A stretch of 64,000 nucleotides of DNA from Synechococcus sp. (GTDB lineage: Bacteria; Cyanobacteriota; Cyanobacteriia; PCC-6307; Cyanobiaceae): positions 224,001 to 288,000 of the forward strand of contig JBJBEO010000001.1 of NCBI GenBank assembly GCA_047284725.1. The letters run 5' to 3'. This document shows positions 27,001-30,000 of the stretch, in pieces (positions within the stretch are counted from its first letter, which is position 1; the number at the start of each line of letters is the position of its first letter). Position numbers: made by a program.

Positions 27001-30000
27001 CCGGTGGCCACGACGAGGGAATGACGTTGACCAATCGCTTGGAGCACCTGTGACTCAAGGCTCCGAAATCCCGCTTCACCGTTTTGTTCAAAGATCTCCG
27101 CAATGGTGCAGCCAGCTGCCTGCTCGATCACGGGGTCGGCATCGACGAAGCCATACCCCAGTTGCTGCGCCAGGGGGCGGCCGCTGCTGCTTTTGCCGCT
27201 GCCCATCATTCCCACCAGATAGAGATTGCGGCCCCCCAAACGGGAGCGCAGCGGGTGGGGCTGAGTCCGGGGTTGGTCTGTCATGGCGCGCGGTTGGCGG
27301 GAAAGGGTCTAGGGCGGGGCTTCTCGGTCGCGCCTCAAGACTCCCTAGGATGCCTTCTGGTCTGAGCACGCCATGACTGAATCCTCAGCGGTGGCGAGTG
27401 CCGCAGATCGAGCCAACGCAGCAGCTCACGGCCAAGGCCGGGGCTGCGTGATTACCCGCCGAGCCTGCTTCAGTGCCAGTCATCGCTACTGGTTACCCGA
27501 ATTGAGCAGTGATGACAACGCCGCTCGCTTCGGTCCCTGTGGGTTGGCTCCTGGCCATGGCCACAACTATGAGTTGATTGTGTCGATGGGTGGCTCCCTC
27601 GATGCCGATGGCATGGTGCTCAATCTTTCCGATGTGAAGCACGCCATTCGCACCGAGGTGACCGGCCAGCTGGATTTCCGTTTCCTCAATGAGGCCTGGC
27701 CGGAATTCGATCTCAGCCAGCCCAGCGGCTGTCTGCCCACCACCGAAGCCCTTGTTCGGGTGATCTGGCAGCGTCTCACGGCACACCTTCCCCTTGTCGC
27801 TCTGCGGCTTTACGAATCACCAGGCCTCTGGGCCGACTATCTCGGACACGGCATGGACGCTTTCCTCACCATTCGCACCCATTTCGCTGCAGCCCATCGC
27901 TTGGCACGGCCGGAACTGAGCCAGGAAGACAACGAAGCGATCTACGGCAAATGTGCCCGGCCCCATGGGCACGGTCACAACTATCTGGTGGATGTGACCG
28001 TGCGAGGTGGCATCGATCCACGCACCGGCATGGTGTGTGATCTGGCCGCCTTGCAACGCCTGGTGGATGACCTTGTGGTGGAGCCGTTCGATCACACCTT
28101 CCTCAACAAAGACATTCCCCACTTCGCCACCTGTGTGCCAACGGCTGAAAACATCGCCTTGCACATTGCCGATCGCCTGAGTGGTCCGATCCGGGCCATC
28201 GGTGCCCACCTGCACAAAGTGCGGCTGCAGGAAAGTCCCAACAACGCCGCAGAGGTGTATGCGGAAGTTCCCCAATTGGAGATGCAGCCAGCGGCGATGG
28301 AAGCAGTGATGGCCTCTTAGGTCACGGCGTGCTTTCGTTGCCATGGATGTGTCGCGCTACGACCATTCGCGTCCAGACGTTGCTGCGAACGCGCTTGCTC
28401 TGAACCAGGGATCGCTTGAGCCTGCTCCGGCGAAAGCGTCTTTCCGGAACAGGCCCCCCTGCACACTCCGTCTGGTGCTGGCCATCAGTCTGGATGGGCG
28501 ACTGGCCCCCCCTGATGGTGGAGCGGCTCAGCTAGGTGGGAGTGGGGATCGAAGGGTGCTGGAGCAGGCTCTGGCATGGTCTGATGCTGCTCTGATCGGT
28601 GCTGGCACCTTGCGCGTCCATCGCTGCACCTGTCTTGTGCACGACCGTGCGTTTCTCGATCAGCGTCTGGCATCGGGGCGCTCCGCCCAGCCCAAAGCTG
28701 TTGTGGTGAGCGGGCAACCTCAACCCCAGTTTCCCGCTGATTGGCCTTTCTTTCAGCAGCCGCTGGAGCGTTGGTTGTTGCGGCCAGAAGACCCAACCGA
28801 CCCCGACAGGCTCGAGCAGGGCTTCGATCACGTGCAGCCATTGTGTGCTGACTGGTCGAGCACCAAGGCCTCGCTGGCGGACCATGGCTTGGAGCGGATT
28901 GTGCTGCTGGGAGGAGCGCGTCTCACGGCAGCCTTGCTGCAAGCCGATGTCGTGGACGAACTCCAGCTGACTCTGACCCCGCGTGTGTTGGGTGGACCCT
29001 ATGGCTGGGTTCCCTTGACCGGGATCAAACTGCCCAACGGGCTTGCGGCGTCCAATGCATGGGCTCTGCAGGAGGCCGTGCCTCTGGGAGGTGATGAACT
29101 TCTGGTGCGTTATTCCCGTCGGCGCTCGATCAGTGCACACACGTGTGATTCAGTTTGATGTGCGGGCCGGCCCACCGGAGATGCCGCACAGCGGCGGATG
29201 ACCACTGCGCACTCCACCTGTGGTTAGGGTCCATCGGCATCGCCTCGCTCCCCCGGTCATGACTGCGCTGTCTGCCCGTTGGCATCGCTCGTTGCGGGAG
29301 ATCCCCGAAGAGCGATGGCAACAGCTTGTCGGCGATGCAGCGACACCCTTTTACCGCTGGGATTGGCTGGTCGCTCTTGAAGAGTCAGGCAGCATCATCC
29401 CTGAGCAGGGTTGGCAGCCACTGCACCTCTCGATTTGGCGTGACCAAAGCCAGCTGGTGGCTGTTGCACCGCTTTATCTCAAGGGGCACAGCTATGGCGA
29501 ATTTGTGTTCGACCAGGTTTTTGCTCGGTTGGCAGCTGATTTAGGCGAGCGTTACTACCCCAAGCTTGTTGGGATGAGTCCTGTGAGCCCGGTCGAGGGC
29601 TATCGCTTTCATGTCGCTCCTGGGGAAGATCTCGCTGAGCTCACGGCGTTGATGTTGAAGCTGATTGACCAATTTGCCGCTCAGCATGGAATCTTGAGCT
29701 GCAATTTTCTGTATGTGGATCCGGCTTGGCGGCCTTTCGCGGAGGCGGCCGGTTGTGCCACGTGGATGAATCAGCAGAGCCTGTGGTCTTCCGAAGGCCA
29801 GTCTACATTCAGCGACTATCTTTCCCGCTTCAATGCCAATCAAAGGCGGAATATTAAGCGTGAGCGTCGTGCTGTTCAGCGCGCTGGTCTTGCGGTGACT
29901 CCCTTAACGGGTGACGCCTTGGATGCGTCCTTGTTGCAGCGAATGCATGCCTTTTATGAGCAGCATTGTGCCCGATGGGGGATGTGGGGCAGCAAGTATC

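What a model noticed while it worked through the whole genome (the two positions that open the first line are those of the whole stretch)
27373..29158. A universal stand-alone RibD-type reductase in a pterin operon is the likely missing dihydrofolate reductase of picocyan [...]
g00254 (252343-253158) is a second RibD_C reductase, apart from the complete ribD (g00780), directly behind the two-domain pterin synthase g00253. folA is missing here and in the whole family sample while this gene is universal, and across cyanobacteria the two largely exclude each other; it is the best candidate for the dihydrofolate reductase long noted as missing.
Evidence so far: folA (PF00186) in 0 of 41 family genomes, g00254 in 41 of 41, behind the pterin synthase in 29 of 29 loci; no folA or folM hit in the tables, thyX present. 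In 71 Cyanobacteriia: 48 of 55 without true folA (E<1e-20) have it, 12 of 16 with folA lack it. Best single-sequence PDB match is Rv2671 (E 7e-10, call 187), which reduces DHF to THF (PMC10530724, section 3, call 222).
(Added by a program. Inside this text positions count along the whole contig: contig position 224,001 is position 1 of the stretch shown here. "Call 12" and the like, gene names such as g00115 and contig names such as C1 are that model's own, and its searches are not shown. The text may have been shortened before it was handed on; [...] marks where a part breaks off. The agent that wrote the report below was given it as the finding of a first reader that could run no searches.)

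Follow-up and report, generated by a model that had tools for sequence, protein, structure and literature searches.

The report
Likely missing cyanobacterial dihydrofolate reductase
A gene now labelled as a spare riboflavin enzyme is probably the long-sought enzyme that most cyanobacteria use for the last step of making folate (vitamin B9), but nobody has yet assayed it.

Summary
The gene (28343-29158, here 'X') is a stand-alone RibD_C/DHFR-fold reductase, separate from an intact bifunctional ribD. folA was found in 0 of 301 family genomes. Among 236 Cyanobacteriia, intact X is in 171 of 198 without folA but only 10 of 38 with folA. Three folA carriers hold X as pseudogenes with different lesions. 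X has lost RibD's substrate residues (K152, R184, D200, E299) and matches FolA at D27 and T113 (64 of 64 sequences each). In published S. elongatus Tn-seq data the orthologue (Synpcc7942_1186) is essential, like folE, folB, folP and folC. The pterin synthase, queuosine genes and flanking genes are not. A 2026 paper still calls this step unexplained, and the Prochlorococcus MED4 model leaves it without a gene. Against: fold and profile do not separate Rv2671 from archaeal Rib7; FolA's R57 is absent; 10 of 236 genomes have no folA and no X-like gene; a published table lists no orthologue in Synechocystis 6803 or UCYN-A; my advance prediction held in only 2 of 4 genomes; no assay exists. The 'pterin operon' link is mostly picocyanobacterial. 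Verdict: probable FolA substitute (about 0.72), directly testable.

The parts
28343..29158 (+). Gene X: stand-alone RibD_C/DHFR-fold NADPH-dependent reductase (271 aa from the first ATG; the conserved core starts near residue 43); candidate dihydrofolate reductase
   Evidence: PF01872 E 3e-21; below every NCBIfam RibD, Rib7 and PRK14059 cut-off; AlphaFold model pLDDT 94; DHFR/RibD fold, Z 25
28547..28549 (+). Asp69, aligned to E. coli FolA Asp27 and Rv2671 Asp67; Ala in RibD
   Evidence: D in 64 of 64 X sequences; A or S in 7 of 7 cyanobacterial RibD. Archaeal Rib7 also has it (D33)
28907..28915 (+). Leu189-Gly-Gly, aligned to FolA Ile94-Gly95-Gly96; replaces the Glu (E. coli RibD E299) needed by riboflavin reductases
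   Evidence: L in 58 of 64 and E in none of the four commonest residues, which cover 63 of 64; RibD E in 7 of 7
28970..28972 (+). Thr210, aligned to FolA Thr113; Tyr, Phe or Val in RibD
   Evidence: T in 64 of 64 X; T or S in 30 of 30 cyanobacterial FolA
27373..28320 (+). Dual-domain 6-pyruvoyl/6-carboxy-tetrahydropterin synthase (PTPS/QueD family); upstream neighbour in picocyanobacteria
   Evidence: PF01242 twice; TIGR00039 and TIGR03367 over cut-off; 18 of 18 family loci, 1 of 31 others
29220..30446 (+). FemAB-like GNAT acyltransferase (PF04339); the most widespread neighbour of X, but kept when X is lost
   Evidence: present in 33 of 33 folA-carrying genomes
30451..30852 (+). Stand-alone DUF4346 ('PterinBD') protein, 4 nt behind the GNAT gene
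   Evidence: PF14251 E 2e-25; stays with the GNAT gene in genomes that lost X
26679..27284 (-). Shikimate kinase aroK, divergent, 88 nt from the PTPS start
   Evidence: PF01202; 18 of 18 family loci, 0 of 31 others

Best explanation
X is an NADPH-dependent dihydropterin reductase of the DHFR/RibD fold that performs the FolA step (7,8-dihydrofolate to tetrahydrofolate) in most cyanobacteria, including all picocyanobacteria sampled. Shown here: fold, residue pattern, distribution and decay. Taken from published data: essentiality of the orthologue. Inferred: NADPH binds at the G-x-G-T...G-G motif; Asp69 and Thr210 hold the 2-amino/N3 edge of the pterin ring as Asp27 and Thr113 do in FolA (roles recalled); the loss of the ribityl- and phosphate-binding residues opens a hydrophobic pocket. 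Modest turnover is enough where ThyX does not make dihydrofolate. Where a lineage holds a true folA, X becomes dispensable and is often lost.
For: (1) The hole is real. folA was found in 0 of 301 family genomes and in 38 of 236 Cyanobacteriia. The own genome has no FolM and an unfused FolP. (2) Exclusion. Intact core X is in 171 of 198 folA-less genomes and 10 of 38 folA carriers. Within the five families that hold both states it is 56 of 59 against 5 of 23 (kin are not independent). The neighbouring GNAT gene stays in 33 of 33 folA carriers, so the loss is specific to X. (3) Decay. folA carriers G154, G099 and G310 have X remnants in place, with unshared frameshifts, stops and deletions; G310's congener G274 has intact X and no folA. 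(4) Residues. X matches FolA at I5, A7, D27, T46, I94, G95-G96 and T113, with Leu for F31. It lacks RibD K152, R184, D200 and E299, which cyanobacterial RibD keeps. Asp83 and Glu180, the D200 and E299 equivalents, are needed for yeast Rib7 activity (PMC3631187). (5) Essentiality. In PMC9239245 Data Set S1, Synpcc7942_1186 is essential, as are folE, folB, folP, folC, folD, thyX and the full ribD. PTPS 1184, DUF4346 1188, tgt and queC are 'beneficial'; 1185, 1187, queA, the epoxyqueuosine reductase and the COG0262 'dihydrofolate reductase' 1819 are non-essential; queF is ambiguous. (6) Precedent. Rv2671, tied for the best fold match, reduces DHF (PMC10530724). (7) X is kept in 6 of 6 reduced diatom endosymbionts that lack folA and use a ThyA-type synthase (PMC12903740 Table S2).
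Against: There is no assay. Sequence and fold do not separate Rv2671 from archaeal Rib7, and Rib7 also has the Asp. FolA Arg57, which binds the glutamate carboxylate (recalled), is Pro in X. Ten of 236 genomes have neither folA nor any X-like stand-alone gene, some of them complete (G008, G022). In genus g72, 4 of 8 good genomes lack X. The PMC12903740 table lists no orthologue in Synechocystis PCC 6803 or UCYN-A, although UCYN-A keeps folE, folB, folK, folP and folC. My prediction, written before the result, that four new X-less genomes would carry folA held for 2 of 4, and 3 of 31 X carriers also had folA (Fisher p 0.09 on that sample). Family f14 keeps both genes in 5 of 5 genomes. Rv2671's own DHFR activity is low (PMC10812664). 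Essentiality rests on one strain, read from a secondary table, with orthology by gene order and length.
Confidence: 0.72

Rival explanations
1. X fills the same pathway hole one step earlier or more loosely: it reduces dihydropteroate (before FolC adds glutamate), or is a broad dihydropterin reductase whose essential job is keeping folates reduced.
For: The pterin-edge residues are kept but FolA Arg57 is not. The best-scoring structure is Rv2671 with only the pteridine ring of dihydropteroate resolved (4xt4 title). A dihydropteroate-reductase route exists in Helicobacter (PMC1971073). It explains the exclusion and the essentiality equally well.
Against: Rv2671 has Pro-Gln at the same place and still reduces DHF. 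X has its own conserved arginines (R91, R108, R143) that might bind the tail. Endosymbionts with a ThyA-type synthase keep X and would need DHF recycling (inference).
Confidence: 0.12
2. X serves unconjugated pterins only: it re-reduces dihydrobiopterin, or oxidised 6-carboxy-pterin in the biopterin-glycoside or queuosine routes fed by the neighbouring PTPS/QueD. FolA can stand in for it as a side activity.
For: It lies next to the dual-domain PTPS in 18 of 18 family loci. Distant relatives of another clade lie beside yhhQ (14 of 80 loci), folE2 (12 of 80), queA (5 of the 30 neighbours scanned), queE and queD, and 12 of 45 of those genomes have folA. Cyanobacteria make abundant tetrahydropterin glycosides (PMC3546692).
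Against: X is essential while PTPS, queC and tgt are only beneficial and queA and the epoxyqueuosine reductase are non-essential. The PTPS link is 1 of 31 outside the family. Synechocystis 6803 makes tetrahydro-cyanopterin yet is listed without X. It leaves the folate hole open.
Confidence: 0.08
3. X is a second riboflavin-pathway pyrimidine reductase, as it is annotated and as the MED4 model assigns PMM0105.
For: Pfam RibD_C; best profile hits are Rib7 and RibD; assigned to EC 1.1.1.193 in iJC568 (PMC5111396).
Against: It lacks K/N152, R184, D200 and E299. The full RibD keeps them in the own genome and in the other cyanobacterial RibD examined, and is itself essential. It gives no reason for exclusion by folA.
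Confidence: 0.03
4. X has another essential reductase role (unknown substrate, for example with the GNAT neighbour), and the pattern with folA is partly shared ancestry.
For: The GNAT gene is the most conserved neighbour. Many folA carriers fall in a few families. Ten genomes survive with neither gene.
Against: The GNAT gene is non-essential and is kept when X is lost. The exclusion holds within families and within one genus, for two separate folA clades.
Confidence: 0.05

Closest known systems
Mycobacterium tuberculosis Rv2671 (stand-alone RibD_C, functional DHFR analogue; PDB 4xrb, 4xt4, 4xt6)
   Same: Stand-alone RibD_C of similar size; Z 25.0, rmsd 2.1 over 210 residues, 25% identity; shares the Asp (D67) and the Thr; reported to reduce DHF (PMC10530724).
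   Different: Rv2671 keeps Asn44, the helix Arg and Glu193, where X has Val, Leu and Leu. Its activity is low and it backs up a true DfrA only when over-expressed (PMC10812664). X would be the sole, essential DHFR. X scores 68 bits against a 184-bit cut-off for PRK14059.
FolA (type I DHFR, PF00186)
   Same: Same fold (Z about 15-18); matching residues at I5, A7, D27, T46, I94, G95-G96 and T113; complementary distribution.
   Different: No PF00186 match; about 60 residues longer with RibD-type insertions; no Arg57; RibD-like S-x-D-G N-terminal motif.
Archaeal/fungal Rib7 (DAROPP reductase, TIGR01508) and the RibD/RibG reductase domain
   Same: Closest by profile (5xux E 1e-29) and tied by fold (Z 24.6); NADPH motif; Asp33 of Rib7.
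   Different: X lacks the Asn/Lys, Arg, Asp and Glu used for the ribosyl-phosphate substrate, and has Thr where RibD has Tyr or Phe. A complete ribD exists beside it.
FolM/PTR1 (SDR) and Helicobacter FolP-fused dihydropteroate reductase
   Same: Known non-FolA solutions to the same step (PMC1971073).
   Different: Unrelated folds; neither was found in the own genome.

Membership tests
RibD_C / DHFR-fold reductase superfamily | PF01872 over cut-off and DHFR-like fold | tested here: met
   76 bits against 24.1; Z up to 25
RibD_C / DHFR-fold reductase superfamily | NADPH motif G-x-G-T ... G-G | tested here: met
   G86, T89, G190 and G191 invariant in 64 of 64; motif described in PMC3631187
Riboflavin reductase (RibD/RibG, Rib7) | Catalytic Asp (E. 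coli D200) and Glu (E299) | tested here: not met
   His or Tyr at the D200 position; Leu at E299 in 58 of 64
Riboflavin reductase (RibD/RibG, Rib7) | Phosphate-binding Arg (R184) and specificity Lys/Asn/Thr (K152) | tested here: not met
   L, V, I or T at R184; V, I or M at K152; roles from PMC3668577 and PMC3631187
Riboflavin reductase (RibD/RibG, Rib7) | NCBIfam cut-offs TIGR00227, TIGR01508, TIGR00326 | tested here: not met
   49/150, 43/186 and 33/156 bits
FolA (PF00186) | Profile match | tested here: not met
   no match in the genome at E<=1
FolA (PF00186) | Pterin-binding Asp27 and Thr113, hydrophobic Ile5 and Ile94 | tested here: met
   D 64/64, T 64/64, V/I/M 64/64, L 58/64 in a sequence alignment with E. 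coli FolA; not checked by structural superposition of side chains
FolA (PF00186) | Arg57 for the glutamate carboxylate | tested here: not met
   Pro in 63 of 64 at the aligned column
Rv2671-type pyrimidine reductase family (PRK14059) | NCBIfam cut-off | tested here: not met
   68/184, 50/274 and 47/226 bits
Rv2671-type pyrimidine reductase family (PRK14059) | Closer to Rv2671 than to Rib7 by profile or fold | tested here: inconclusive
   single sequence favours Rv2671, profile favours Rib7, fold ties
Dihydrofolate reductase activity (EC 1.5.1.3) | NADPH-dependent DHF reduction; complementation of folA loss | not testable with these tools
   indirect support only: exclusion, decay and essentiality

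The most novel reading that the evidence does not exclude
Most cyanobacteria, from streamlined 1.6-Mb picocyanobacteria to filamentous forms, make tetrahydrofolate with their own DHFR class. It is a riboflavin-reductase paralogue that shed the ribityl-phosphate site and converged on FolA's pterin-binding residues. It is repeatedly displaced when folA is gained. A few lineages with neither gene, apparently including Synechocystis PCC 6803, must use a third, still unknown enzyme.
Probability: 0.65. Interest if true: 0.85.

Novelty: new variant of a known kind. Interest (0 to 1): 0.78.

Why it matters
The step was flagged as missing in Prochlorococcus in 2007 (PMC1971073) and was still called unclear in February 2026 (PMC12903740: FolA in only 15% of cyanobacteria). 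The MED4 genome-scale model carries the reaction with no gene while assigning this gene's orthologue to riboflavin (PMC5111396). A named, essential, single-gene candidate makes the question testable with one complementation and one assay. It would correct an annotation in most cyanobacterial genomes and models, offer a basis for the reported low trimethoprim susceptibility of cyanobacteria (PMC4531292; inference), and narrow the remaining hole to a short list of lineages.

Tried and rejected
Rv2671 as best hit was rejected as discriminating evidence. The 'pterin operon' as a general feature was rejected. In-place replacement of X by folA was not seen: 30 folA loci had no PTPS, GNAT or DUF4346 neighbour within 1.5 kb, and the 30 folA neighbours scanned showed no folate cluster apart from one methionine synthase. 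Weak PF00186 hits (E above 1e-7; 18 genomes, 5) were not counted as folA; those examined are 180-200-aa COG0262-type proteins, and the S. elongatus one is non-essential. What replaces both genes in the 'neither' genomes was not found: no pteridine reductase over cut-off in 38 genomes; FolP mostly in 280-330-aa frames, with one 388-aa form in G124; their RibD keeps normal RibD residues. Eight of the ten have a small COG0262-type protein or none that explains it: seven have one (G022, G033, G051, G124, G164, G277, G297), G008, G092 and G156 have none, and G092 and G156 are fragmented. No relative was found in viral contigs with the one pattern used. RNA runs held at most 0.27 of the words and only as contigs, so co-transcription was not tested. 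No sigma-70 promoter match was found, and terminator matches were at chance level. Two rows (f4_G113, ribD_G154) were out of frame and ignored; both were redone in frame. No complex was predicted, because no binding claim is made. Intactness was checked for the 10 'both' genomes but not for each of the 171 X-only genomes. Only 5 of the 17 f4-type genes were examined.
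Full report
THE LOCUS. The window holds aroK (26679-27284, -), then on the + strand a dual-domain PTPS/QueD (27373-28320), gene X (28343-29158), a FemAB-like GNAT (29220-30446) and a DUF4346 protein (30451-30852). Gaps are 88, 22, 61 and 4 nt. X has only RibD_C. The genome's other RibD_C is the full ribD. PF00186 has no match, thyX is present, FolP is unfused, and the best hit of E. coli FolM is 26% over part of its length, with no pteridine-reductase model near cut-off.

THE QUESTION IS OPEN IN PRINT. PMC1971073 (passages) says Prochlorococcus marinus lacks any recognisable DHFR although ThyX organisms still need one. 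PMC7133116 (passages) says only FolC is known for the late steps in Synechocystis. PMC12903740 (passages and supplement rows) says FolA is in 15% of cyanobacteria, that it is not clear how the rest make THF, and records FolP as an earlier guess. The MED4 model (PMC5111396, supplement rows) leaves EC 1.5.1.3 without a gene and assigns PMM0105 (220 aa, RibD C-terminal domain, core) to riboflavin. I found no paper proposing this family as the cyanobacterial DHFR in ten searches; the locus tag Synpcc7942_1186 gave 0 papers. The library lacks most subscription papers. The primary Rv2671 paper and a 2014 review of folate-pathway variants were not available to me, and from recall that review may discuss RibD-like DHFR substitutes in other bacteria. 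Seven scanned supplementary files of PMC9239245 could not be searched, and the PMC7133116 tables were cut.

DISTRIBUTION. Sample 1 was 201 Cyanobacteriia, at least 95% complete. True folA (E<1e-20) was in 33 (18 weaker hits not counted). A profile of 22 X orthologues matched 167 at E<=1e-25. Of these, 150 are core X (E about 1e-40 or better), 16 are family-f4 genomes with a divergent stand-alone gene, and one (G154) is a fragment. G113 has a 17th f4-type gene. Sample 2 was 35 further genomes. Combined, of 38 folA carriers 10 have intact X and 28 do not. Of 198 without folA, 171 have core X, 17 the f4 type and 10 neither. In the five families with both states, X is in 56 of 59 folA-less and 5 of 23 folA-carrying genomes; kin are not independent, so the p-values there overstate. 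In the own family X is in 19 of 19, including 8 genomes of 1.6-1.9 Mb, and folA in 0 of 301. PMC9361551 (one passage) reports 'dihydrofolate reductase' clusters in some freshwater picocyanobacteria; I could not tell whether these are folA or the small COG0262 type. X is restricted to the class at high scores: outside it the best match among 87 genomes was E 1e-29. Before seeing the result I predicted that the four new X-less genomes would carry folA. Two did (G250, G310), two did not (G277, G297), and 3 of 31 X carriers had folA too. This is a partial failure.

DECAY. The GNAT neighbour is in 33 of 33 folA carriers. Upstream of it, G154, G099 and G310 carry X remnants. G154 has short indels, an in-frame stop and lacks the 3' half; G310 has two frameshifts, a stop and lacks the 3' half; G099 is heavily decayed with an internal deletion. 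The DNA alignment with the intact gene of G274 (G310's congener, no folA) shows no shared lesion and unrelated sequence after the breakpoints, which suggests separate inactivations. All three carry one f30 folA clade (7 rows). Three further members of that clade still have X, and G250 has no trace. The main cyanobacterial folA clade (24 rows) and the f14 clade (4 rows) are separate. No remnant was seen at the other GNAT loci examined.

ACTIVE SITE. In an alignment of 64 X sequences with E. coli FolA and RibD, 30 cyanobacterial FolA and 7 cyanobacterial RibD, X has V/I/M at FolA I5 (RibD K152), A at A7, D at D27 (64 of 64; RibD A/S), L at F31, T at T46, L at I94 (RibD E299), GG at G95-G96 and T at T113 (64 of 64; RibD Y/F/V). 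R184 is hydrophobic or Thr, and the D200 position is His or Tyr. The roles of the RibD residues come from PMC3631187 and PMC3668577 (passages); those of the FolA residues are recalled. FolA R57 is Pro. The f4 type and the non-cyanobacterial relatives keep N, R and E but also have the D; the f4 type also has the T, much like Rv2671. The Asp alone is not diagnostic, since archaeal Rib7 has it. The AlphaFold model (pLDDT 94) scores Z 25.0 against Rv2671 with pteridine and 24.6 against M. mazei Rib7, which is a tie.

ESSENTIALITY. Locus L083 has the order PTPS, 91-aa ORF, X (232 aa), GNAT, DUF4346 (130 aa), and a 194-aa gene on the other strand. The same order and lengths occur in PMC9239245 Data Set S1 as Synpcc7942_1184-1189 (supplement rows and passages; essentiality there is taken from Rubin et al. 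2015, which I did not read). 1186 is essential. 1185 and 1187 are non-essential, which argues against a polar effect. 1184 and 1188 are beneficial. folE, folB, folP, folC, folD, thyX and ribD (0203) are essential; the COG0262 'dihydrofolate reductase' (1819) is not. queA and the epoxyqueuosine reductase are non-essential, queC and tgt beneficial, queF ambiguous. So X behaves like a folate-synthesis gene, not like the pterin-glycoside or queuosine genes, and the intact RibD cannot cover for it.

CONTEXT. PTPS precedes X in 18 of 18 family loci but in 1 of 31 others; the GNAT is the wider neighbour. Relatives of another clade in Planctomycetota, Verrucomicrobiota and others lie beside folE2 (12 of 80 loci), yhhQ (14 of 80), queA, queE or queD. 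folA was found in 12 of 45 of those mostly incomplete genomes. This favours a pterin substrate for the wider family and keeps a queuosine-linked role alive for that clade. In PMC12903740 Table S2 the GNAT-adjacent 228-236-aa 'riboflavin-specific deaminase', which is X by synteny and size (not checked by sequence), is kept in 6 of 6 diatom endosymbionts but listed as absent from UCYN-A and Synechocystis PCC 6803.

WHAT IS UNEXPLAINED. Ten genomes have neither gene, and in one genus 4 of 8 good genomes lack X. No FolM, no general FolP fusion and no altered RibD accounts for them. G008 also lacks thyX and has a ThyA-type fusion, so it should need DHFR most. A third enzyme is likely.

VERDICT. X works like a FolA substitute: probability about 0.72 for DHF as substrate and about 0.84 for filling the folate-reduction step in some form. 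It is not a member of FolA, of the riboflavin reductases or of PRK14059 by the tests above. It is a new variant of the kind exemplified by Rv2671 (PMC10530724 and PMC10812664, passages), differing in residue pattern and in being essential. Interest 0.78. Other papers opened: PMC4531292 and PMC3546692 (passages, cited above); PMC5954106, PMC13408713 and PMC5615194 (passages; nothing bearing on X).

Noticed in passing
L070:688-2202 (G008), L064 (G110); window 30451-30852: 24 of 201 Cyanobacteriia have a ThyA-like hit, 23 of them in ~500-aa frames; the two scanned end in a DUF4346 domain. G008 has it and no thyX. The window's stand-alone DUF4346 is 'beneficial' in S. elongatus. DUF4346 may be a folate- or pterin-binding module.
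   Followed up: partly
G008, G022, G033, G051, G092, G124, G156, G164, G277, G297: Genomes with neither folA nor an X-like gene; a third DHF-reducing enzyme probably exists. G368 and G369 also lack X (folA not searched there).
   Followed up: partly
L095-L098, L109 (family f4): One family has a different stand-alone RibD_C clade in place of core X. It keeps Asn, Arg and Glu as well as the Asp and Thr, closer to the Rv2671 residue pattern.
   Followed up: partly
L174-L253 (Planctomycetota, Verrucomicrobiota and others): Stand-alone RibD_C relatives recur next to queuosine genes (yhhQ, queA, queD, queE) and folE2, a possible unrecognised pterin-repair step in queuosine metabolism.
   Followed up: partly
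L312/L314 (G277), L313 (G022): The thyX match is split across a ~600-aa open frame, which looks like an intein or other insertion.
   Followed up: no
L093 (G082), G069: Family f28 genomes carry two X paralogues, one grouping with the f14 type that coexists with folA.
   Followed up: no
L307:1441-2604 (G124): FolP with a ~125-aa C-terminal extension that has no Pfam match, in a genome with neither folA nor X.
   Followed up: partly
window 29220-30446: The FemAB-like GNAT (PF04339) is in 44 of 46 cyanobacterial genomes tested yet is non-essential in S. elongatus; its function is unknown.
   Followed up: no
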